A stretch of 64,000 nt of DNA from Leucoraja ocellata (lineage: Eukaryota). The notes below the pieces were generated by a model. It did no database searches. It was not told the origin of the DNA and was given only the letters and a program-made list of their open reading frames with translations. Each line of letters starts with the position of its first letter. Within the stretch, counting starts at the first letter, position 1. Positions 5,390-61,649 of this stretch are shown piece by piece. Both the position numbers and the translations under genes were made by a program. The stretch lies in the NCBI GenBank assembly GCA_036785375.1, contig JAWMAR010000015.1:3224001-3288000 (forward strand), read 5' to 3'.

Positions 5390-6395
5390 TTGGTCCTCTC
5401 CTTTCACCCCACCAGCCTCTGCATCCAACATTTCTGTCACCTCTAATGTGATCCCACCACCATCCCATTCCCATCCCCACCTCTTTCCGCAGAGACCATT
5501 CCCTCCCCAACTCCTTGTTCACACATCCCTTCCCACCCAAAAACACTCCCTCCACAGATACTTTCCCCTGTAATCGCAGATGTACCACCTGTACCTACTC
5601 CCTCATCTTCCTCCAAGGGCCCCAGCAGCCCTTCCAGGTGAGACAGAGGTTCATGGGCATCTCCTCTAACCTCATCTGCAGCATCCGGTGTTCCTGATGT
5701 GGCCTCCTCTACATCTGCGAGACCAAGCGTAGACTCAGTGACAATTTCGCTGAAGACTTGCCTTTGGTCCGCAAGGCCTACTGGATCTCCCACTTGCCAA
5801 CCATTTAAACTCCTCTTCCCATTTCCATACTGGCCTTTCTGTTGTGAGTCTACTCCATTGCTAGAGTGAGGCCGCACGCAAACAGGAAGAACAGCACCTC
5901 ATATTCTGCTCAGCTAGTTTACAACCCAGGGTTATGAACACTGAATTATCTGGTTTTAGGTAACTACCAACACCCCCCGTTCCCTTCTTCCCCCACACCT
6001 TCCCTATTCCCTCAACCTTCTCCCTTGTGCCCCCCTGAACTTGCACCTATATTTCCCCTACCCTCCCACCTACATTCCTTCCTCCTGCTTCACAATTCAC
6101 AACTCTTCAATCCATTTATCTCACATTTCCTGTCCTTTCATCTCTGGCCTTTGTCCAACCATCTGTCTATCAAACCACCCCTTTACCTCTATCGATTTGT
6201 TACCTGCCAGGCTTGGTCCTGTTCCTCCTCCCTTCCAGCCTTCCTCTCCTTTCCCCCCCTCAATCAGTGAGAAAGGGCCGATGTTAAGCTACCGAAACAC
6301 CACCAATCCACGTTCTCGAGAGATGCTGCCTAACCTGCTGTGTTACTTCAGCAATTTGTCTTTCTTCAAAACCAGCATCGACAGCTCTGTTTCTA
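5390..6395 (+). mobile_element. Degenerate Penelope-like element 3' fragment (GIY-YIG endonuclease region, pyrimidine-rich UTR and terminal repeat)
   Basis: TFPCNRRCTTC, SSNLICSIRCS, YICETKRRL; homologous to 17950-18737. Confidence 0.85.
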
Positions 6396-12486: not shown

Positions 12487-12757
12487 CGCAACGGTAGAGC
12501 TGTTGCCTTACAGCACCAGAGAGCCGGGATTGATTCTGACCACGGCTGCTGTCAGTACGTTCTCCCTGACCACATGGGTTTTCTCTGGGTGCTCCAGTTT
12601 CCTCCCACATTTCAAAAATATACAAGTTTGTAGGTTAATTGGCTTCTGTAAATTGTCCCTAGTGTGTGGAATAGTATTCGTGTACAAGGTGATCGCTGGC
12701 CGGTGCGGACTCGGTAGGCCAAAGGTCCTGTTTCCTTGCTGTATCTCTAAAGTAAAG
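12487..12757 (+). mobile_element. tRNA-derived V-SINE (HE1-like)
   Basis: A/B-box-like head (cggtagagctgttgccttacagc...gggattgattc), V-core ctccagtttcctcccaca, tail ctgtatctctaaag. Confidence 0.85.
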
Positions 12758-15557: not shown

Positions 15558-15884
15558 CACGGGAGGCACGTTGGAGCAGTGGTAGAGTTGCTGCCTTACA
15601 GCGCTTGCAGTGTCGGAGACCCGGGATCGATCCCGACAATGGGTGCTGTCTAGACGGAGTTTGTACGTTCTCCCTGTGACCTGCGTAGTTTTATCCAAGA
15701 TCATCGGCTTCCTCCCACATTCCAAAGACCTACAGGTTTGTAGGTTAATTGGTTTGGTAAATGTAAAAATTGCCCCTTGTGTGTGTGTATGTGGGATAGT
15801 GTTAATATGCAGGGATCGCTGGTCCCCGCTGGTGAGCCGAAGGGCCTATTTACGTGCTGTATTTCTAAACTAAACTAAACTAAA
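15558..15884 (+). mobile_element. tRNA-derived V-SINE (HE1-like)
   Basis: A box tggagcagtgg, B box ggatcgatccc, (ctaaa)n tail. Confidence 0.9.
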
Positions 15885-16289: not shown

Positions 16290-17009
16290 CTGCAAATATA
16301 ACAAACCAATTATTACTTGTTTAATTCCTTCTGGTGCACTGCACTTAGTTAATTGCCACAATAATATTATCATTAAATCAGAACACATTGAAAGGCACTG
16401 CAAACTTTCAATGCACTTAATCTCATATCAAGTAATACACCATTTCAAGCTATGAGAATTCTCACCTCTAATTTCTGACTGATATTAAATATTACACTAT
16501 CACTACATTTCTAGGATTATAATGTAAATAACTTGTGTCAATTGCAATGTAATTCTGCAATGGAATTGTAATTAGATGAAAATACTTCAATGTTATGCAA
16601 TGCGTGCAATTCGTAACATCAACATGCGACTCCTAACCACACTGTGATAACTCTGCTCCTATTAAGACCTTATCTCAATAAATATACAAAGGTGGGTAAA
16701 CAGTTGAAAGGTGGAAGAGCTCAAACATTCAAATGGTCTAGTCTTGCTCATGTTTCCAGAGTGGTGTAGTGGTGATGAGCTCAAAACACATTTTGCAAGC
16801 ACAAGCCTGATTGGGGAAACAGTATTTATATCTGTACTGTTAGGTGCAAATGCAGACATAGTTTCACATGTTTAACATTATACTGTGTGAAAATCACCCT
16901 GGGGAAAACACACAAGATGTATTATAGGCTTTTGTAGGTATAGATATCAGATTTTAAATTAATTCCCGAACTTCTCAACTAGTTTGAGCGGGGCATTTAC
17001 AAACCCATC

Positions 17010-18737
17010 ATATTACTTATTCTTGGACCATGACCCCACAGACGAGCACCAGGCCACTATCTCTAACACTATCACTGACTTCATCACTTCCGGCTCCCTA
17101 CACTCCCAAGCCTCCAACCTCATCGTTCCCCAGCCCTGCATGGCCCGATTTTACCTTCTCCCCAAAATCCACAAACCTGACTGTCCTGGCAGACCCATTG
17201 TTTCTGCCTGTTCGTGCCCCACCAAACTTATTTCCACATACCTCGACTCCATCCTATCCTCCCTGATTAAATCCCTTCCTACCTATGTTCAAGACACCTC
17301 ACACACTCTTCGTCTCCTCCACGACTTCCGTTTTCTTGGCCCCCATTCTCTCATCCTCACCATGGATGTCCAGTCACTCTACACCTCCATCTTAAAGCCC
17401 TCTGTTTCTTCCTCGACCACAGAACCAACCAATCCCCGTCTACTGATACTCTCCTCTGCCTAGCGGAGCTGGTCCTTACCCTTAACAATCTCCGTTTGAC
17501 TCCTCCCATTTCCTCCAAATCCAAGGCGTAGCTATGGGCACGGGCATGGGCCCAAGCTATGCCTGCATCTTTGTAGGGTATGTTGAACAATCCTTGTACG
17601 AGGTGTACCATGGCCCTATCCCCAAACTTTACCTTCGCTACATCGACGACTGCATTGGTGCTACCTCCTGCACCCATACAGAACTCACTGACTTCATCCA
17701 TTTCACCACTAATTTCCATCCGGTACACTGCTTCCCACCCTGCTTTCTGTAAGGACTCCATCCCCTACTCCCAATTCCTCCGTCTACGCCGCATCTGCAC
17801 CCAGGATGAGGTGTTCCACACCAGGGCATCGGAGATGTCCTCATCCTTTATGGAAACGGGGGGTTCCCCTCTTCTACTATAGATGAGGCTCTCACCAGGG
17901 TCTCTTCTATACCCCGTAACTCTGCTCTCACTCCCTACCCCCCCCCCCCCTCACCTTCCACCCAACCAGCCGTCACATACAACAAATAATCCTCCAACAT
18001 TTTTGCAACCTCCAACGGGATCCCACCACTGGCCACATCTTTCCATCTCTTCCCCTTTCGGCTTTCCGCAGAGACCGCTCGCTCCGCAACTCCCTGCTAA
18101 TTTGTCCCTTCCCACCCAAACCACCCCCTCTCCAGGCACTTTCCCTTGCAACCGCAGGAAATGCTACTCTTGTCGCTTTACCTCCCCCCCTCGATTCCAT
18201 TCAAGGACCCAAGCAGTCTTTCCAGGTGCGGCAGAGGTTCACCTGCACCTCCTCCAACCTCATCTATTGCATCCGCTGCTCTACATCGGTGAGACCAAGT
18301 GTAGGCTTGGCGATCGCTTCGCCCAACACCTCCGCTCGATTCACACTAACCAACCTGACCTCCCGATGGATCAGCACTTCAACTCCCCCTCACATTCCGA
18401 ATCCGACCTTTCTGTCCTGGGCCTCCTCCATGGCCAGAGTGAGGCCCACCGTAAATTGGAGGAGCAGCACCTCATATTTCGCTTGGGTAGTTTACACCCC
18501 AGCGGTATGAACATTGATTTCAGGTAGTCCCTGCTTTCTCCTTCCTTCCCCTCCCCATCCCAGCTATCCCACAGCCCACTGTCTCCGCCTCTTCCCTTCT
18601 TCTTCCTGCCCCCCACCTCCCTCCCCCCCCCCCCCCACATAAATCTGAAGAATGATCTTGACCCGAAATGTCGCCTATTTCCTTCGCTCCATAGATGCTG
18701 CCTCACCCGCTGAGTTTCTCCAGCATTTTTATCTACC
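17010..18737 (+). mobile_element. 5'-truncated Penelope-like retroelement (RT plus GIY-YIG endonuclease, frameshifted) with 3' terminal repeat
   Basis: FYLLPKIHKPDCPGRPIVS, MDVQSLYTSI, MGTGMGPSYAC, YLRYIDDC (RT); NLIYCIRC...YIGETKCRLGDRFAQH (GIY-YIG). Confidence 0.92.
18645..18672 (+). ncRNA. Degenerate minimal hammerhead-ribozyme-like motif in the Penelope terminal repeat
   Basis: CTGAAGA (18645-18651), mutated stem II, GAAA (18665-18668), GTC (18670-18672). Confidence 0.5.
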
Positions 18738-19263
18738 TATAATTTTCATGCAGATGTGTCCCCATTCCTGAAAGACTTTTTAAGAAAATGTTTTCTGGCC
18801 ATCATAAATTTTATTTCCAAATTGTTTGAATCGTTAATTCTGTTTCCAAAATGGTTACTATTAATCTGCAATGAATAAAAGTCTTTTTTTGGCAATCGAC
18901 TGATATCGTCACTTACGTGTCCAAAGTTCAAAGATATCTCAGCTAATTTAATGGGTACAGGAAGTTCCTGTATGATGAAAATGTCTGGGATTTTGTAACC
19001 ATACTGAGCTCATATTTCTCATGGCAAATTAAATAGACCAAAGACCTTTAATAACCAGGATTATGCCATGAGACAAAAAGATGAATAGGTTATATGAAAT
19101 ATGCATAAAGGCACACATGAACACATTCAACTGCAGAAGCAACAGATACATAACTGCGGAAAAGAGAGAGTGAAAGAATGAGAATTATTTTTCTTGACAA
19201 TATATCTAATGAACTGAAAATACATTCAATCCAACCAAATAAACATACAAAATGAACACTTAC

Positions 19264-26510: not shown

Positions 26511-28053
26511 AAGTCAAGTCAAATCAAGTTTATTTGTCACATACACATACGAGATGTGCAGTGAAATGAAAGTGGCAATGCTTGCGGACTTTTGTGCAAA
26601 AGACAAACAACCAAACAAACTATAAACACAATCATAACACACACATTCTTTTACATAATAAATAATGGAATGAAAAACGTTCAGTAGAGTTAGTCCCTGG
26701 TGAGATAGGCATTTACAGTCCGAATGGCCTCTGGGAAGAAACTCCTTCTCAACCTCTCCGTTCTCACCGATGGCAACGGAGGCGTTTGCCTGACCGTAGC
26801 AGCTGGAACAGTCCGTTGCATGGGTGGAAGGGGTCTCTCATGATATTGTTGGCTCTGGAGTTGCACCTCCTGATGTATAGTTCCTGCAGGGGGGCAAGTG
26901 AAGTTTCCATAGTGCTTCGGCCGAACGCACTACTCTCTGCAGAGCCTTCTTGTCCTTGGCAGAGGAATTCCCAAACCAGATGGTAATGTTCCCGGACAAG
27001 ATGCTTTCCACTGCCGCTGCGTAGAAGCACTGGAGGATCTTCGGAGACACTCTGAATTTCCTCAATTGCCTGAGGTGGTAAAGGCGCTGCCTTGCCTTAC
27101 TCACGAGTGCTGAGGCATGTGATGCCCATATCATATCCTCGGAGATGTGGACTCCCAGATATTTAAAACAGTTCACCCTATCCACAGGATCCCCATTTAT
27201 CCTCAATGAAGTGTACGTCCTCGGATGATGTGCCCTCCTAAAGTCCATGATCAGCTCCCAGGTTTTTTTGATGTTCAAGAGGAGGCTGTTATCCTGGCAC
27301 CAGAGTGCTAGACCAGCCACCTCCTCCCAGTAGGCCTTCTCGTCGTTGTCTGAGATCAGGCCCACCACCACAGTGTCATCAGCAAACTTAATTATTGAGT
27401 TGGAGCTGAACCTAGCCACACAGTCATGTGTGTACAGGGAGTACAATAGGGGGCTGAGGATGCAACCCTGGGGCGATCCTGTGCTCAGGGTGAGGGACTT
27501 TGATGTATTCCCTCCCATCTTGACTACCTGGGGCCTGGCGGTGAGAAAATCCAGGACCCAGGCACACAGGGAGGTGTTGAGCCCCAATTCCATTAGCTTC
27601 CCGGCCAGTCTGGTGGGGACTATCGTGTTGAAGGCTGAACTGTAGTCTACGAACAGCATCCTCATCTATGAATAGCCCCCCTTCTGGCTGTCCAGATGGG
27701 AGAAGGCGGTGTGCAAGACCTGGGAGACCGCATCGTCCGTGGATCTGTCCAGACAGTATGCCAACTGCAACAGGTCCATGTTCCGAGGGAGGAAGGCGCA
27801 GATGTGTTTCTTCACCAGCCTCTCAAAGCATTTCATGACTACCGAGGTAAGGGCCACCGGACGGTAGTCATTCTGACAGGCTGGGGAGGCATTTTGTGGT
27901 ACCGGTACAATGATGGATTTTTTGAAGCAGGCAGGTACCACGGACTTGTCCAGGGAGAGGTTGAATAATGTAGTGAGCACTGGAGCTAGCTGCGTAGCAG
28001 AGGACTTGAGTACTCGCCCCGAGATGCCATCGGGGCCTGCAGCTTTTCTCGTG
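26511..28053 (-). mobile_element. 5'-truncated Rex1/Babar-clade LINE (RT domain with few frameshifts)
   Basis: [64 protein letters not shown]; tail gtgacaaataaa(cttga)n. Confidence 0.92.
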
Positions 28054-29233
28054 GAACTAACCAAGGAAGAAATGTTATGAAGGAACTGGATTTTGCAGCC
28101 TTAAATGGACATTTAGATTACTAAAAATCAGATTACTTCAATTGAATTAGCTTAGTAAAATTCAAGAGTCGAACATTCATATAACATTGAGGCAGAACTG
28201 GGTTGAACGTCAGATTATTATTTTTAGAGATTAGTACCCCCATAATAAAACTGATGGCTCATGCACCAACAGCTGAAATACGGTATACCTTCAATAGAAA
28301 ACAAAACTCCAGTTGGTGATCAAAATGTGTAAGACGTAACGTGATGAAAATCAGGTTTAAATGGGATTGATTAGAGGAATTTTCCAAATTTAAGATTCCC
28401 TAATTAGTCAGCATTTAATTGATATTCTGCCACTCCCCCAAGAAATTGAAAGAAATGTGAACTCCTGTAGTGCTGCAAATTTTATAATTATACAGGACAA
28501 ACTTGGTGAACCAAATGGCCTTTTCTTCTACTTTTTCATACGGATTAAATATTCTTCATTTAGTATGGTGTCCAATACGCTGAACAGTATACACCAATTG
28601 TTGTTTTACCAAGGATTTATATAAATTTAACAACACTTCTCAACTTTAATTCAGTATGAAATGCCATGAAGCATAGTATTCTGTTAGCATTTGAAAGGCT
28701 TGAGGATTTGCTTTCAATGTCTTGTGAACCGGCTCTTCTCAATCATCAAATTTCATTTCAAAGAACAATGGCTTTCTTTTAAGAACTGCAATGTGTCACT
28801 TCAATTATACATCGTGTCCTTTATTTCAGTATTCCTGCAAATTTGATTGCCATTCCTTCCAGCTCATAAGCCAATTCATTAATGCACACATCCAAAAGAA
28901 CTGGACAAAAATCTAGTAAGCATTGCTATCCATATGCAGTCACTATATGAAATGTCTTCTATCTCCCTCTGTCTAATTCTTCTCTTGAGAACATTTTTTT
29001 AATCTGCTTTGCCCCTTTGCCGAAAATCCATATTGTGTGTTGCCTGAGAGGCCACATCAGTGCTCTGCATGTTCATATTCATGTCATCCACTGCATTTAC
29101 TTCACATCTCCCCAGTCGTCATATATAGCCCAATCATTGATAATGGATATTGTATTGTTAACATGTAGCTTGGCCTTTCATACTAATAAATAATGAATTT
29201 CAATGTTTGCTATTTCTATTTTGAGCCCCATAC

Positions 29234-37612: not shown

Positions 37613-37722
37613 GTCTAGAAAGGAACTGCAGATGCTGGTTTACACCAGAGATAGACACAAAATGCTGGAGTCTGCAGAGATGCTGCTGGTCCTGCTGAGT
37701 TACTCCAGCATTTTGTTTATGT
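37613..37722. mobile_element. Penelope-derived foldback element with its centre (hammerhead cores) deleted
   Basis: aaaatgctggagt...actccagcatttt inverted arms. Confidence 0.7.
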
Positions 37723-39179
37723 CACAAGGCCCTGGTTGCAGCACACACATCACTTGTTCAATGGATGCGGGCAGTGGTCGAGGCAAACAACATGCAAAGA
37801 TGTACAAGGGGAAAAGGATATGTCACTGGATGAGATGGAATAAATGGAATGAAAAAATAACCACGTGCGGAAAATGTGTAGAAAATACTTGTGCCCATTC
37901 GTACAAAATAATTTAAATGTAAAATTCAGTAGGTGGGTAAATCTAAACTTTAACCATTACTATGTATTGATACTATATACTGAGCTACAGTAGAGATGAA
38001 GCTACAGTACATTCAAATTATTCCCATCAGCACTCCAAATCTGTAGCTGTGTTTTTTTTCTAGTGTGAGAAGAGGAAAAAAGGTCAAGTGAAACCATGGA
38101 ATAAAAACAGGAAACGGTGGAAATTCCCAACATGCACCTTCATTATTTTCTGTTTTTATTTCTTTATTCTTAACACCTGCAGTATTTTGCTTTAGAAGTA
38201 AAACAGTGGATTTAACACTATTGCCAGACCTCGGCATTACAATTTAACTAACTGATTTAAGTCATCACAACAATTTATGGACTTTGGTAACTCTCGGACT
38301 CCAGTGGAAATTGTAAAGCTCATTAATGAACTAATTGGCCCTGCCAAGGAAACAGACTGTTCATGACCTGCCGTCAATTCCCAAATGTTGAAGATGATGT
38401 TTCATTGAAATCAGATTTTTGTGGTAACTTTAAATGCAAGATCTCGTACTACAAAAACTCAGTTAAAGTGCCTCTTGTGCCTTCTGCATCAATTAAATAT
38501 CAACACAAAATTGTCTACTAAATATCTGAAATTCAGTCTGGATAACAAAATGAAATGCAACACCATGCCCCAAAACCAAAGAGCTTTATGAAAGATTAGC
38601 ACAACTGCATATTGTGAATAATAAATTAAATAGTTCTGAAGCCAGTAAGTCTAGCAGCATCTGAAGGGAGAAAGTTATAATTTCAGTGGTCTTTTATCGG
38701 CCAGCTCACCCTACCCATTTCTCTGAATGTAGTATCTGTTTTCTGTGGTGGTTTGTTTTCGTTTTTCAGAATGCAGTTGTGATTTTGGGGTTCAAATTTA
38801 ACTTTTCTTTTTTAAACAGAAACTGAGACTCAGTGTGGATGCAGAAACATTGGATTAATGGCACAAATTAGTAAATGGAAAAAGTCTTTATCTTTGTCCA
38901 ACACTCAAAGCCACAACTAAAGTTCTATTCCTCTTGTCTGATAAATAATTGACCGCCTTTATTACTGCACAAGGAGAGATGGGATGTTTAATCTTACTCC
39001 TTTCCCTTTAAACATTTTTAGGCCTCCCATTGTTCAATAATATATCAACTGAACAATCCAACCCCAGATGCCTGGCTAAAACTAAATTTATATTGCTTAT
39101 TTTATTCTTCAGCCAGTTTGAATCTGAGGCCTTGGGATATGTTAAATAGACCCAGCATAATTAAAATTGTAATTAAAAT

Positions 39180-39370
39180 GTAAAAACATGCAGATGCTGG
39201 AAATCTCAGCAGGTTTGGCAGCATCTGTGGAGAGTGAAAGAAGGGTTGTTGATTCAAGTCGAAGACTTTATCAGAACTGATGAATGGTTCCCAACCCAAA
39301 AAGTTAATAATTTCATTTTCAACATAAATTGACTAATCTGCATTGTGGTTCCAGCATTTTCTGTGTTTTA
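39180..39370. mobile_element. Old Penelope-derived foldback element
   Basis: gatgctggaa...ttatcagaactgatgaatggttcccaacccaaaaag...ttccagcattt. Confidence 0.6.
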
Positions 39371-47055: not shown

Positions 47056-47747
47056 AGGCCGTGTCCCACTTGCGTGTCCCTGGCACACAACTTACTCGAC
47101 CTCGTCGTCGCGTTGAGACACACGGGCATCGTGTGGCCACGCGGGGCCGGTCCCACTGAGAAGCGCAGAGGGGTATGTAGTTGTGCTCAGTATCGCGTGG
47201 CGCTCAGAAATTTTGCAGCGAACAAAATCTTTGCGCGCCACCGACCTGTCGGATAACTGACGGCCAAAGTGGGACGGGCCCAAGACCCTGGCGCGACGCA
47301 ATGTCTCATCTCCAACAGCAGCAGAAGCAGGCAAACGATCGCCGAGCTCGGCCTGGGCCTCACGGCCGTTGCGGTCCGAATCCGCCCCCACTTCTACTCC
47401 CAGAACGGGGCCAAGAAAATTGAAGATGGACACAAGATGCTGGAGTAACTCAGCGGGACCGGCAGCATCTCTGGAGAGAAGAAATGGATGACGTTTCGGG
47501 TCAAGACCCTTCTTTCAGACAGAAGGGTCTCGACCCGAAACATCGCCCATTGCTTCTCTCCTGAGATGCTGCCGGTCCCGCTGAACTTTACTCCTGCATT
47601 TTGTGTCCATCTTCAAATGACATCACCCACTCCAGGCGGCTGTGTGGACGCATGAAGTCACACGCGACCTTCGCAGGACCGTCACGCCTCAATGCGACCA
47701 TGAGGTCTTGTAATTAGCGTGCCAAGGACACGCACGTAGGACGGGCT
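47056..47747. mobile_element. PIF/Harbinger-like MITE, family B, containing a hammerhead-type foldback
   Basis: About 38-bp imperfect TIRs (aggccgtgtcccacttgcgtgtccctggcac / gtgccaaggacacgcacgtaggacgggct), TAA at 47053-47055 and 47748-47750. Confidence 0.85.
47420..47616. repeat. About 197-bp near-perfect hairpin (Penelope terminal-repeat foldback) nested in the MITE
   Basis: ttgaagatggacacaa...cagcgggaccggcagcatctc pairs with gagatgctgccggtcccgctg...ttgtgtccatcttcaa. Confidence 0.9.
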
Positions 47748-53778: not shown

Positions 53779-54297
53779 GTTTAGTTTAGAGATACAGCAC
53801 AGAAACAGGCCCACCGACCAGTGATCCCCGCACACTAATGGTATCCTATACACATTAGGGACAATTTACAATTGTACCAAGCCAATTAACCTGTAAACCT
53901 GTACGTTTTTGGAGTGTGGAAGGAAACTGGAGATAACACACGCAGGTCATGGTGAGAACGTACAAAATCCATACAGATAGCAACTGTAGTCGGGATCAAA
54001 CCGGGGTCTCTGGCATTGTAAAGCAGCAACTCAGCCCCACAGCCATCAGGCTATTAAACTTCGCTCGGACAAAACTCTGATTATTAATAACCCATTATCT
54101 GTTATTTGCACTTTATCAGTTTATTTATTCATGTGTGTATATATTTACATTATGGTATATGGACACACTGATCTGTTTTGTAGTAAATGCCTACTATGTT
54201 CTGTGTGGTGAAGCAAAGCAAGAATTTAATTGTCCCATCAGGGACACATGACAATAAACTCACTTGAACTTGAACTCTACTGCTGCGCCACCGTGCC
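53779..54297 (-). mobile_element. HE1-like V-SINE interrupted by a LINE-tail insertion
   Basis: Head ggcacggtggcgcagcagtagag (54297 down) continues as ttgctgctttacaatgccagagacccc below 54032; (ctaaa)n tail at 53779. Confidence 0.88.
54033..54272 (+). mobile_element. Rex1/Babar-type 3' end inserted into the SINE head
   Basis: cacagccatcaggctattaaac...acacatgacaataaactcacttgaacttg; aactc duplicated at 54028-54032 and 54273-54277. Confidence 0.8.
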
Positions 54298-54364: not shown

Positions 54365-54551
54365 CTGTTAAAGAATCTTGTGTCAGTGCGTTTTGCTCCA
54401 CTAGATGTGAAGACTGCAGAGAGGTGGACTGAGGTGGTGTCTGAGTACTAGCAGTTATCAAACTTTGGTTGTAGACAGGAGAATACGAGCGTTCAGATTT
54501 CACTTCCTGCTGCTCAACACGTGGAGGCAGGGGTGCATTAACTTTGAACAC
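54365..54551 (-). CDS. CAPRIN2: Caprin-2 exon (VFKVNAPLPPRVEQQEVKSE...TASTQTPPQ...DSLT)
   Basis: cag/gtaaa boundaries, 187 nt; VF.VNAPLPPR and TASTQTPPQ Caprin motifs. Confidence 0.93.
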
Positions 54552-55639
54552 CTGCAAGAGAACACATTAAGTTAACGACAATTCATCACAAATCATTTTC
54601 TTTAAAGTTGGACTTAAAACTCTGGACATTTTTAGCAGGATCCCCGATGCTTTTAATCCTCAGAATTTCCTTCCCACCCTAAAATTCAAAATGAGATGGA
54701 ATATTTGGATTCAGTTTGATTTCAGCTCGTCTGTTAAGAACAATTCATGAGTTTTTATGCCTCGTTATAACCTTCCCCTCAGCCAACAATGAACCATTCT
54801 ACATTTCCTCGAGCATAGTCTGCTTTGATATGTCATTTTCACACCTGATCCCTCCATATCTCTAGTTTCCCTCTCCCACATTAGCAAACCACTTCAGACA
54901 CTGGAAGCTTCTCCAAAACCTCGCTGATACAATAGTGATTGAAGCAGACCTCTTCCCTATAATCCCTCTTCAAAATTGTCCACAACACAACAGTTGATGT
55001 ACAATTTGTTAATTGCTCAGATTCAATCTCAGAAAAAAGAACATTGGGAATTAATTTAATACCCATTTCCAACATATTTAATATTGCAAATGTTAGCAAT
55101 TAAGTTCAAATAAAATAACTGGCATGAAACAAAAAAAATCCACATCAGTAAATTGCCAAGACACCAGCTCTATTCTGGACAACACATCTTTAGATGTTTT
55201 GAATCAAGGATCCAGATAAAATTTAAACAGAAGTCTTGTTTACAATAAGAATAGAATGGTTTGAAACACATGGGACCATTAAATAACTGTAGAAAGGATA
55301 TCATTACTTTTGGTTACAGTGGTTGGAGGTTTACATTCATTAAAACAACTTACATTTGCAGCATGAAAGATGCAATAAAGGCAAACAGCTACACTGGTAA
55401 TGTAATAAGCTCCAAGTTAAAAGGTTTGCAGTACAATTCTAATAATCAAAATGGTTTTCTTGTTAAAAACACCTGATCCAGACACAATGGAAAATATTAA
55501 TTGCTCTTTAACAGTAGTCTGGATTGCTATTGTGGAAAATCTGCCCAAATAATAATGCCTGGAAAAATACATTAAGCGTCTCAAAACATGCTCCCTCTAC
55601 TGCTGAGGCTGCAGAAGTGCATCCTGACCAAGCAAATGT

Positions 55640-55877
55640 CAAAGAGATACAAAAAGCCAGAGTAACTCAGTGGGTCAGACTGCATCTTTGGAGAAAAGGA
55701 ATAGGTGACGTTTCGGGTCAAGACCCTTCTTCAGACTCTCAATCTGAAAAAGGGTCTCAACCAGAAATGTAATCTATTCCTTTTCTCCAAAGATGCTGTC
55801 TGCCCTGCTGAGTTACTCCAGCTTTGTGTCTCTTTGGTTCTTTGGTTTAAACCAGCATCTGCAGTTCCTTCCTACAC
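55640..55877. mobile_element. Penelope-derived foldback element with two divergent hammerhead-like cores
   Basis: Arms of about 95 bp inverted around 55740; right terminus accagcatctgcagttccttcctacac. Confidence 0.85.
55703..55737 (-). ncRNA. Minimal hammerhead-ribozyme-like motif with intact core, sense to the CAPRIN2 pre-mRNA
   Basis: Minus strand agt-CTGAAGA-a-GGGT cttg ACCC-GAAACGTC-acct. Confidence 0.6.
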
Positions 55878-56379: not shown

Positions 56380-56675
56380 GGGCAGCACAGTGGTAAAGTT
56401 GCTGCCTTACAGCGCCAGACTCTGGTTCAATTCTGATGACGGGTGTTGTCTGTACAGAGTTTGTACATTCTCCCTGCGACCGCGATGGGCTTTCTCCAGG
56501 TGCTCCAATCTCCTCCCACATTCCAAAGAAGTGCAGGTTTGTAGATTAAATTAGTTTTGGTAAAATTGTAAATTGTCCCTGGTGTATAGGATAGTGTAAG
56601 GGTACGGGAATTGCTGGTCAATATGGACTTGGTGGGCCCAAGGCCTATTTCCGTGCTGTATCTCCAAAGTCTAAT
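56380..56675 (+). mobile_element. HE1-like V-SINE ending about 70 bp from a CAPRIN2 splice donor
   Basis: gcagcacagtggtaaagttgctgccttacagcgccagac head, ggttcaattc B box, tail gctgtatctccaaag. Confidence 0.88.
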
Positions 56676-56745
56676 AGTAAAAATATATAGATAGGCAACA
56701 AGAGGTCAACCATGTCAAAGATTAAATCAGTCTCACGTCACTTAC

Positions 56746-56880
56746 AGTGTGCATAGACTGAAAAGGTGTAGTCTTTGTACTAATTGGAGAAGTGCTCACT
56801 GGTGTCTGAAGCACCGGTCCTTGGGATGCTGGTGTTATTGCTGTGCTTGAGGCAGTCTGGTCATTGGCCAAAGAGGTCAT
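56746..56880 (-). CDS. CAPRIN2: Caprin-2 exon (MTSLANDQ...KTTPFQSMHT)
   Basis: cag/gtaagt boundaries, 135 nt; PFQSMHT joins VFKVNAP as in the Caprin PFQ.MQTVFN.NAP motif. Confidence 0.88.
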
Positions 56881-57614
56881 CTGGTGGAATTGATAAGACA
56901 AGGAATAGTGAATCCAATAGACAGCAGTAAATTAGTTTCCAATCCAGATAATCAAAGCAATTAACTGTCAACATGCAGGAAGTTAGTCCATACTGACCAT
57001 AAACATACAACCAGCAAATGTAAAGCCTGGCTGGTTTTTAAAGCAGATTGCAATAAGTCTGATATTTGCAATAAGCAGATTGAAATAGAAAGTTGAAGTG
57101 GCAATATTTATTAATTGCACAATCAATACACAAAACATGATCAGATTGTAGTCAAAATAATCCCTTTAATTCCACGCACTGCAATAAAAACAATGCTAGA
57201 ACTCAGCCAGCGAAACACCATCCATGGAAAAATAAATTAGTTCATGTTTTGAGATGGCCACCCTTGCTCAACGGGGCTACAATGAAAGATCACCGACTGA
57301 AATATTGGTTTCCTTCCATGGATGGAGTTTGTCTGCTGATTTCTTCCAACAATTTTCTCACTGTACAAGTTAAGCATATTATCTCCTGAATAAACATCAT
57401 TGTGCAGTTTTCCATTAATATCAATATTGATCATGATTAAAATAGATTTTCCCTATGATTATTTTAGAACTACACATTTACTCGAATATTTTGCATTATG
57501 AACAATTAAGTAAATGAGGTTTGACAGATTTAACGATACAGTTGTACAAATGTAGTACTGTATAAATAAATTCAACAATTCCAAATTTCAGATGGAAAAA
57601 AACAAAAATCTCAC

Positions 57615-60527: not shown

Positions 60528-60680
60528 AAGGAACTGCAGATGCTGGCTTACCAAGGAAAGACAAAATGCAGGGACGACTCAGTGTCAGGCAGCATCGCCA
60601 GAGTTTATGGATAGGTGACATTTTGGATCAGGACACTTCTTTGTTCTGAAGGGTCCCGACCCAAAACATCACCTATCCAT
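60528..60680. mobile_element. Penelope-derived foldback element, partial
   Basis: aaggaactgcagatgctgg...tggataggtgacattttgg / tctgaagggtcccgacccaaaacatcacctatcca. Confidence 0.75.
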
Positions 60681-61649
60681 GTTAAAAATAACAAGATAGT
60701 TGAGAATTACAGGGTATTGAGGAGAGGGGATAGCAATGCATCAAGTAAAAAAAAAAAAAGGGGAAGTATGACAGGCAGGAAAAGCAAAGTCAAACAAACA
60801 ATGCAATCCAAGGAGGCTTCAAAAAGCAATCGGGTGCAAAAAGATGCATTAAGGCTACAGGAGATCAGACCAGTGCAAGAGACAAAAAGTCACTAAATGT
60901 TAAAGGGAATGGAGAGTTCACTGGAGAGGTTGGTCATGCAGCTGTTCGAAACAAAACAAAAATGCTGGTGAATTGTGTGAGAAAAATTCAAAGGGAAAAA
61001 AACAAGATAAGCATGGAATTTATATAGGCCATTATGGATTTTCAACCCAAAGCTTGCCTTGTATATTTAAAGGCCAATACTTCAAAATATCAGCTCTTTC
61101 TGCAAGAGACAAAATATTACATTCTGGCTACCAGATATTCAAGAAATAATCAGTGTTCGACAGCTCGATAAATTTATGTGGAAAGTCAATAGGTCATCAT
61201 ACAAAATGCTCTATTTCACACTCCAATGTACCTTCCAACAGAAGTGCGGGAGTCATTTTTTTTGCTCGTTTCCAACTAAATAGTTTTCCCAAATATAATG
61301 GGGGAGAAAAATGCAATCTAATCAGGTCAAGATGGCAGCAAAAAAACTAGATGCCATAATTGGTATTGCAATAGAATTACTACTGTAGTTGTCACATGCA
61401 ATATACTGGTGCTGTTACTCTACTCCCGACATTAAATCTGCTGGATAGCTAGCACTAGAAATTGTCACCTCAAAACTTTACCAAAACTACAACAACTGTA
61501 CGAGTAACAAGATCAGTTTAATTGTGTATTCGATTAGAATGGGCACCTGTTGGTTATCTACCAGTACATTTTAACATGCACTGCAAGTTAATATTGTATA
61601 ACTATGCTGCATCAGAGTCTTGGCAGGGAGAGGATAACAAGTGTCCTAC

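What the first reader, a model, noticed from the sequence alone, without database searches (positions are those of the whole stretch)
55640..55877. Core-intact hammerhead-ribozyme-like motif, sense inside a CAPRIN2 intron, caged by its own antisense arm
Seen: the minus strand at 55737-55703 reads agu CUGAAGA a GGGU-cuug-ACCC GAAA CGUC accu. This has all hammerhead core residues, a stem II, an extra A after A9, a GUC triplet and a palindromic ACGU in place of stem III. Known: Penelope-like elements carry minimal type I hammerheads with palindromic stem III that act as dimers, and an extra A between A9 and G10.1 is tolerated in a natural viroid hammerhead (CChMVd). Inference: the CAPRIN2 pre-mRNA transcribes the antisense arm (55836-55741) first, so a hairpin of about 95 bp should sequester the ribozyme as a built-in off switch and possible ADAR substrate. 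Caveat: stem I is only about 2 bp by eye, so activity is uncertain.
Basis: partly seen in the sequence, partly recalled or inferred. Interest (0 to 1): 0.7.

Follow-up and report, generated by a model that had tools for sequence, protein, structure and literature searches.

The report
Inverted Penelope stub in skate intron
This is an ordinary back-to-back double scrap of a very common jumping gene in a skate CAPRIN2 intron; it carries an intact miniature self-cutting RNA motif that is predicted to stay zipped in a hairpin and likely does nothing for the host gene.

Summary
The minus strand carries all hammerhead core residues, a 4-bp stem II, an ACGU palindrome and a 2-bp stem I. It lies sense in a 2.2-kb CAPRIN2 intron, behind a 91-nt antisense arm. 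It is one insertion of the ribozyme-bearing end (pLTR) of a Neptune-like Penelope retrotransposon: a main arm with tail plus an inverted arm without. In 1.0 Mb of sampled genome there were 466 arms, 82 head-to-head pairs (about 10 expected by chance) and 32 equally intact motifs. Long-ORF copies (RT, GIY-YIG) end in the same pLTR. The cage is real in silico (30 kcal/mol to open). But head-to-head geometry puts the antisense arm first on either strand, intact cores are not enriched in pairs, and cores decay at about the rate of neighbouring sequence once ascertainment is controlled. A host off switch is therefore unsupported. Both the motif and the inverted-pLTR-plus-tail layout are published for Penelope-like elements, and this scan found the same thing before in several shark introns. 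One lead: arm 5' ends pile up at the first bases of the hammerhead, not at its cleavage site.

The parts
55640..55737 (-). Inverted pLTR arm without tail; hammerhead-sense in the CAPRIN2 pre-mRNA; begins 3 nt upstream of C3
   Evidence: 9 differences from the family majority in 91 columns
55705..55736 (-). Minimal type I hammerhead motif: 2-bp stem I (GU 55736-55735 / AC 55706-55705), CUGAAGA 55734-55728, extra A, 4-bp stem II with CUUG loop, GAAA, ACGU palindrome, predicted cleavage after C 55707
55734..55737 (.). Head-to-head junction: GACT fits both arms (4-nt overlap between the inverted arm's start and the parent subfamily's upstream GACTCTCAGT)
   Evidence: sequence compared with upstream clusters of the family
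55734..55877 (+). Main pLTR arm with tail; antisense to CAPRIN2 and the caging strand; its own hammerhead is broken (G8 to A at 55749, 11.1 C to A, and others)
55840..55877 (+). About 35-40-nt PLE tail, present on this arm only (boundary approximate)
   Evidence: tail on exactly one arm in 60 of 82 sampled pairs
56746..56901 (-). CAPRIN2 exon upstream of the host intron (aa 570-621 of P0001); donor GT at 56745
54366..54551 (-). CAPRIN2 exon downstream of the host intron (aa 622-683); acceptor AG ends at 54552
16963..18755 (+). Broken, longer copy of the parent PLE (RT and GIY-YIG remnants) ending in the same hammerhead pLTR at 18642-18755
   Evidence: 79-83% DNA identity to long-ORF copy L141

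Best explanation
The 238-bp feature is one insertion of two head-to-head ends (pLTRs) of a Penelope-like retrotransposon; its intact minimal hammerhead is inherited from the element, is predicted to be locked in a 91-bp hairpin in the CAPRIN2 pre-mRNA, and likely never cuts it. Shown: family identity, linkage of this pLTR to RT/GIY-YIG ORFs, head-to-head layout with a one-sided tail, abundance, and roughly neutral decay among copies. Inferred mechanism: the element's RT starts inside the pLTR/tail region and copies back to the start of the hammerhead. A second copy is made in opposite orientation from the same template, joined by a 4-nt overlap, and only one arm keeps the tail. When CAPRIN2 is transcribed the antisense arm comes first, a consequence of symmetry. 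The duplex outcompetes the hammerhead fold. Even unzipped, a 2-bp stem I and a 4-nt palindrome would need a second copy and probably the PLE protein. The intron is spliced out with the hairpin in it; at most the hairpin is a passive dsRNA, possibly edited.
For: Family: 466 arms in 1.0 Mb (100 stretches, 40 contigs), 0 in the reversed control, 21 in the window. Parent: all 12 long-ORF loci fetched have a same-strand hammerhead pLTR downstream of the PLE coding region, about 115 nt after the stop where the frame runs to the C-terminus. The ORFs show DKG, YIDD, CxxxxCxxC and a GIY-YIG-like end (Pfam RVT_1 E 3.7e-6 and GIY-YIG E 0.008, both below curated cut-offs). L144, L146, L147 and L148 also have an inverted pLTR 5' of the ORF, with the tail on one side. 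Arms of the finding's own subfamily lie 197-248 nt behind PLE C-terminus hits in L081 and L111. Layout: 82 head-to-head, 8 tail-to-tail and 26 tandem neighbours, against about 10 expected per orientation; tail on one arm in 60 of 82 pairs and on both in 3; arms of a pair share non-consensus letters more than random arms do (5.2% vs 2.0%), and this copy's arms share three. Commonness: 31 of 260 core-covering arms are as intact as this one; 13 of 82 pairs have an intact core caged by a core-covering partner. Decay: core 46/747 vs matched downstream 211/2739 substitutions, p=0.18, in 75 upstream-anchored arms; G12 17/74 vs other CpG G 62/224, p=0.45. Cage: 30.4 vs 5.4 kcal/mol. Literature: single min-HHRs showed no detectable cleavage and dimers were weak (PMC4209133); the anole PLE hammerhead cleaved only with protein and was not needed for insertion (PMC11167929); an inverted 5'-truncated copy and a one-ended 30-40-bp tail are typical (PMC8557442, PMC3846280).
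Against: Before controlling for ascertainment and subfamilies, core positions were better conserved than downstream positions (92.0% vs 88.8%, p=1e-5; 6.5% vs 9.5% substitution, p=3e-6). After control the trend keeps its sign but is not significant (p=0.18 and 0.09), so weak copy-level constraint is not excluded. All nine differences of the sense arm from the family majority spare the core and stems (only a loop-II change falls in the motif). The sense arm is identical in the second genomic copy C792 while the antisense arm differs by 2 substitutions and an 8-nt deletion; about 1.3 differences were expected, so this is not significant. No target-site duplication was established (best ACCAAGC/ACCAACC, 1 mismatch). 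Activity was not tested.
Confidence: 0.88

Rival explanations
1. Host-used switch: CAPRIN2 has co-opted the insertion, the antisense arm holds the ribozyme off, and editing, a helicase or slow transcription would release it to cut the pre-mRNA.
For: The core is fully intact and sense in the intron while the antisense arm's core is dead. The insertion is old enough to be shared at its left junction with a contig of another organism label (X13 record 3). Conserved intronic hammerheads in amniotes are a precedent (PMC6155905).
Against: About 32 equally intact motifs per Mb. There is no enrichment of intact cores in pairs. The cage follows from symmetry and costs 30 kcal/mol to open. Stem I is 2 bp, there is no stem III, and the window holds no second intact copy to dimerise with. 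The motif lies 0.9-1.1 kb from both splice sites.
Confidence: 0.03
2. A passive but real dsRNA effect: the ribozyme is irrelevant, but the long hairpin is A-to-I edited or bound by dsRNA proteins, as inverted Alus are, with small effects on splicing or back-splicing.
For: A 91-bp duplex with z -15.5. Family RNA is abundant on both strands in a stranded library (about 1770 vs 1785 depth; tail bin 1293 vs 1049), which fits read-through from host genes. 82 such pairs per Mb.
Against: No locus-specific evidence: 92-98% of laid reads run on into unlike sequence and the locus's own intron depth is 0-3. A>G/T>C differences are as frequent in the X13 contigs (kind not on record, likely DNA) as in the RNA runs. 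This is compatible with the best explanation and adds only a side effect.
Confidence: 0.06
3. A non-autonomous palindromic mini-element (MITE-like or retrozyme-like) that moves as a unit rather than a per-event by-product.
For: Many pairs have both arms starting at the hammerhead (31 of 82 cover the core on both arms), giving similar 200-240-bp palindromes.
Against: Junctions differ from pair to pair (gaps -20 to +48, different start columns). The tail side is random (31 vs 29). There are no tandem arrays as in retrozymes (bioRxiv 10.64898/2026.07.22.740005 defines them as tandem). The same layout occurs around long ORF copies.
Confidence: 0.03

Closest known systems
Minimal type I hammerheads (min-HHR) of metazoan Penelope-like elements (Cervera and de la Pena 2014, PMC4209133; parts 1-2 of 4 of the text read)
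   Same: Full core, unpaired nucleotide between 9 and 10.1, G10.1-C11.1 pair, palindromic 15.2-16.2, location in pLTRs, mass occurrence as single truncated copies and as opposite-strand pairs.
   Different: Stem II is 4 bp (7-8 in Schistosoma) and stem I is 2 bp (4-5 in Schistosoma, 2 in D. virilis). The parts read name no cartilaginous fish; the supplementary alignments were not seen.
EN+ PLE insertion units with inverted pLTR and one-sided tail (Adineta Pen2a, PMC3846280; Craig et al. 2021 Fig. 2, PMC8557442; D. virilis Penelope, PMC2377424; passages read)
   Same: Head-to-head inverted 5'-truncated copy, a 30-40-bp tail at one end, overlap or palindrome at the junction; Neptune-type CX2-5CxxC linker in the parent ORF.
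   Different: Here the unit is reduced to two roughly 100-140-nt arms with no ORF and occurs at about 80 per Mb. No clear target-site duplication.
Poseidon PAc of the green anole (Frangieh et al. 2024, PMC11167929; parts 1-2 of 4 read)
   Same: Hammerhead in the pLTR followed by a tail; uncleaved RNA as insertion template (here: no excess of 5' ends at the cleavage site).
   Different: Different clade. In PAc the ORF starts within the hammerhead; here an ATG about 20 nt after the cleavage site opens only a short frame in the copies seen.
Ultraconserved intronic hammerheads of amniotes (RECK and others; PMC6155905, passages read)
   Same: Type I hammerhead, intronic, retroelement-derived.
   Different: Those are canonical and conserved across species. 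This one is minimal, high-copy, paired with its antisense, and shows no evidence of conservation.
Animal non-LTR retrozymes (bioRxiv 10.64898/2026.07.22.740005; part 1 of 5 and passages read)
   Same: Non-coding, pLTR-derived, type I hammerhead; reported in one chondrichthyan genome.
   Different: Retrozymes are head-to-tail tandem repeats; this is a single head-to-head pair.

Membership tests
PLE minimal type I hammerhead | CUGANGA and GAAA boxes with NUH triplet | tested here: met
PLE minimal type I hammerhead | Helix II with G10.1-C11.1 and an extra nucleotide after A9 | tested here: met
   4-bp GGGU/ACCC and A at 55727; feature list from PMC4209133
PLE minimal type I hammerhead | Palindromic 15.2-16.2 in place of helix III | tested here: met
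   ACGU; self-duplex only -3.1 kcal/mol
PLE minimal type I hammerhead | Helix I | tested here: inconclusive
   2 bp, then A.C, in this copy and across the family; shorter than the 4-5 bp of Schistosoma motifs, equal to the D. virilis variant; the paper's descriptor figure was not seen
PLE minimal type I hammerhead | Located in the pLTR of an RT/GIY-YIG element | tested here: met
PLE minimal type I hammerhead | Self-cleavage as a dimer or with protein help | not testable with these tools
   needs an in vitro assay
Rfam hammerhead families (canonical) | Covariance-model match | tested here: not met
   no hammerhead family at E<=10
EN+ PLE insertion unit | Inverted 5'-truncated pLTR, head-to-head | tested here: met
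EN+ PLE insertion unit | 30-40-bp tail at one end only | tested here: met
   tail on the + arm only; 60 of 82 sampled pairs likewise
EN+ PLE insertion unit | Target-site duplication (optional) | tested here: inconclusive
   best 7-mer with one mismatch; no empty site seen
Neptune clade of PLEs | C-terminal GIY-YIG, DKG motif, CX2-5CxxC linker | tested here: met
   motifs read in the L141-L152 translations; Pfam hits below cut-off; motif definitions from PMC8557442
Neptune clade of PLEs | RT phylogeny groups with Neptune rather than Nematis | not tested
Non-LTR retrozyme | Head-to-tail tandem units each with a hammerhead | tested here: not met
   single inverted pair
Domesticated intronic hammerhead | Conservation at the orthologous site above the neutral rate | tested here: inconclusive
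   only the second genomic copy and 48 nt of one arm in another organism's contig

The most novel reading that the evidence does not exclude
These short insertions are not random truncations. Their 5' ends mark a fixed end of the element's RNA at the first bases of the hammerhead, where every subfamily keeps YAGTCT (fitting an initiator or a 3' splice site). Reverse transcription from the internal tail site to that end yields a whole, uncut ribozyme of about 100-135 nt, and turning round at that end yields the caged mirror arm. The skate genome would then hold a record of about a million events showing how Penelope elements start, stop and fold back, and some 10^5 Alu-like hairpins in its RNA.
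Probability: 0.25. Interest if true: 0.45.

Novelty: new member of a known kind. Interest (0 to 1): 0.15.

Why it matters
As a locus it matters little: it is one of roughly 10^5 equally intact motifs (32 per Mb extrapolated to a 3.4-Gb assembly that contains duplicated haplotypes, so an upper estimate). The family is useful as a large natural data set on how PLEs build inverted ends and where their copies begin, which is still an open part of the PLE replication cycle. It may also be the main source of long intronic dsRNA in skates. A host-controlled caged ribozyme would matter far more, but nothing here points to it.

Tried and rejected
Rfam: no hammerhead match; the miRNA hits only reflect the hairpin. 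Sequencing runs: no RNA holder listed. The RNA runs laid (3 of the 10 raw-read runs listed, 1-6% of each read, under a species label that may not be this genome's) gave exon depth up to about 22, locus intron depth 0-3, element bins swamped by other copies and no pile-up of ends. Such libraries cannot show ribozyme ends or editing at this copy, so this is no evidence either way. The first descriptor undercounted through a loop-length bug (11 hits) and was replaced. Raw core-versus-flank tests were significant but biased by alignment ends, gaps and subfamily columns, so one search is the controlled test. Between-subfamily changes avoid the core (0 of 11 vs 17 of 57 downstream columns, p=0.054), and those in stems keep wobble pairs or NUH: weak support for constraint in the source lineages, not in copies. 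An idea that splicing from AG/GUGACG in the antisense arm to the AG before the core could rebuild a long stem I was dropped: the intron would be under 60 nt and lies inside the duplex. TSD search was inconclusive. Lunse et al. 2016 was not held; its dimer result is taken second-hand from PMC6765202 passages. Not-in-print claim: searches for penelope+skate+repeat+neptune (0 papers), hammerhead ribozyme+shark+penelope-like (1 paper, where 'shark' refers to the shape) and penelope+cartilaginous+transposable elements+skate genome (listing only) found no description of this family. Repbase, Dfam and the supplements of PMC4209133 and of the 2026 preprint were not seen and may list it.

Full report
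Observation. The minus strand reads AGU CUGAAGA A GGGU CUUG ACCC GAAA CG UC ACCU, with C3 at 55734 and C17 at 55707. The region is an inverted repeat with 91-nt arms that are 84% complementary. It folds to -139.7 kcal/mol, and none of 200 shuffles folds as well. A strict descriptor (core, 4-bp stem II, paired palindrome, 2-bp stem I) hits this site once in the window, 32 times in 1.0 Mb of sampled genome, always within one repeat family, and never in controls. Rfam has no hammerhead match. The host gene is CAPRIN2 on the minus strand. The motif lies sense in the intron 56745-54552, about 0.9 kb from the donor and 1.1 kb from the acceptor.

What it is. The arms belong to a very abundant repeat: 21 arms in the window and 466 in 100 stretches of 10 kb from 40 large contigs, with 0 in the reversed control. 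Extrapolated, that is about 1.6 million arms in the assembly, an upper estimate because the assembly holds duplicates such as C792 for this locus. The window itself has a longer broken copy at 16963-18755 that runs from RT and GIY-YIG remnants into the same motif. I fetched 12 of the long-open-frame hits. All have a same-strand hammerhead pLTR downstream of the coding region, about 115 nt after the stop where the frame reaches the C-terminus, and the proteins show DKG, YIDD, a CxxxxCxxC linker and a GIY-YIG-like end. Pfam finds RVT_1 and GIY-YIG only below their cut-offs. By the motif definitions in PMC8557442 this is Neptune-like; no tree was built. The finding's own subfamily is linked to such ORFs in L081 and L111. 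Four long copies carry an inverted pLTR at their 5' end with the tail on one side, and L143 shows a direct upstream pLTR whose tail runs on into the 5' part of the ORF.

The layout is the family's normal product. Among neighbouring arms within 60 nt, 82 are head-to-head, 8 tail-to-tail and 26 tandem, against about 10 per orientation for random placement. The tail is on exactly one arm in 60 of 82 pairs and on both in 3. Arms of a pair share non-consensus letters more often than random arms do, 5.2% against 2.0%. The finding fits this pattern: the + arm has the tail, the - arm lacks it, both share three non-consensus letters, and GACT at 55734-55737 fits both arms. The same arrangement is described for Adineta, Drosophila and other PLEs (PMC3846280, PMC8557442, PMC2377424; passages read), and opposite-strand hammerhead pairs were noted in PMC4209133.

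Is the cage real, and is it a switch? Forcing the hammerhead-competent fold costs 30.4 kcal/mol with the antisense arm and 5.4 without, so sequestration is predicted. But a head-to-head repeat puts the antisense arm first on whichever strand is read (plus strand -137.8 kcal/mol), so this order carries no information. If caging protected hosts from active ribozymes, intact cores should be enriched in pairs. They are not: 20 of 86 paired against 58 of 174 solo arms, p=0.11, with the trend the other way. Thirteen of 82 pairs look like this finding, 4 of them with the strictest intact class.

Conservation across copies. Raw tests showed the core better kept than downstream positions (92.0% vs 88.8%; 6.5% vs 9.5% substitution). 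These are biased by alignment ends, gaps and subfamily columns. In 75 arms whose inclusion of the core is fixed by upstream parent sequence, substitution was 46/747 in the core and 211/2739 at non-diagnostic downstream positions (p=0.18); over all 224 full arms p=0.09. G12, the general base (PMC6155905), sits in a CpG and is lost in 17 of 74 arms, like other CpG Gs (62 of 224, p=0.45), and in 68 of 218 full arms. Stem II shows decay, not compensation: 3 A-U among 224 at 10.1-11.1, about what independent changes would give. Between five subfamilies the core never changes, and the changes in stems keep wobble pairs or an NUH triplet (0 of 11 vs 17 of 57 columns, p=0.054). This suggests the ribozyme matters to the active element but not to its dispersed copies. 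This copy differs from the family majority at 9 of 91 columns and 31 of 260 core-covering arms are equally intact, so an intact core here needs no special explanation.

Would it cut? Published single min-HHRs did not cleave and dimers were weak (PMC4209133). The anole PLE hammerhead cleaved only with the PLE protein and was dispensable for insertion (PMC11167929). This copy has a 2-bp stem I, a -3.1 kcal/mol palindrome duplex and no intact neighbour in the window. The most likely state is inactive; this is inferred, not tested.

Age and expression. The insertion is in the second genomic copy C792, with an identical sense arm and three changes in the other arm. A contig of another organism label bridges the left junction by 48 letters at about 4% divergence. 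RNA reads could not be assigned to this copy. Family reads come from both strands about equally in a stranded library, which fits read-through from host genes.

A lead. Of 417 arms anchored at their 3' part, 159 end within about 6 nt upstream of C3, 84 extend further upstream, and 172 start at about 3 per position between +3 and +60, with 4 at the cleavage site; 2 were not classed. Among solo arms reaching C3, 95 of 184 end there. Every upstream variant keeps a pyrimidine tract and YAGTCT just before the core. This fits a 3' splice site, as at the D. virilis hammerhead (PMC4209133), or an initiator (YYANWYY, recalled). Caveats: old subfamilies with unrepresented upstream sequence can be misclassed, and the ends spread over -1 to -6 rather than sitting at one base. 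It would explain why whole hammerheads, and caged pairs of them, are so common.

Verdict. A real motif and a real hairpin, making up a new member of a known kind. The off-switch reading is unsupported. The scan's notes report the same layout in several shark introns (unchecked AI notes, not used as evidence). Interest 0.15.

Noticed in passing
L031-L130 (1.0 Mb sample): Arm 5' ends pile up within about 6 nt upstream of the hammerhead's C3 (159 of 417) and not at the cleavage site (4); all upstream variants end in a pyrimidine tract plus YAGTCT.
   Followed up: partly
window 37621-37723, 39181-39370, 47423-47613, 60529-60682: Four more head-to-head pairs of the same family in the window; the one at 47.5 kb has a one-base insertion in the CUGA box of its otherwise intact arm.
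   Followed up: partly
window 16963-18755 (+): Broken PLE copy with RT and GIY-YIG remnants ending in the hammerhead pLTR; a second remnant lies near 5443-6388.
   Followed up: partly
L141-L152: Young PLE copies with open frames of 838-1138 aa, 95-98% alike in the C-terminal part, with a Pro/Thr-rich repeat (TGLPPSGPLTRA-like) of variable copy number in the N-terminal region; suggests recent activity.
   Followed up: partly
window 55780-55877 (+) and family majority: The tail's CAGCATCT is complementary to AGATGCTG in the pLTR body, and an ATG there opens a short 13-17-codon frame; this may relate to the internal RT start described for the anole element.
   Followed up: no
window 56380-56670, 53780-54030, 12493-12756, 15577-15875: Another dispersed repeat family, resembling a tRNA-derived shark SINE (label recalled, not tested); two copies are inverted around the CAPRIN2 exon at 54551-54366, about 2.4-2.8 kb apart.
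   Followed up: no
window 26838-28100 (-): Broken LINE-like RT (Pfam RVT_1 plus ALKBH8_N).
   Followed up: no
G000:C792 vs C15 (L001, L002): The locus is present twice in the assembly at about 1.5% divergence, probably as two haplotypes, so the assembly size overstates copy numbers.
   Followed up: partly
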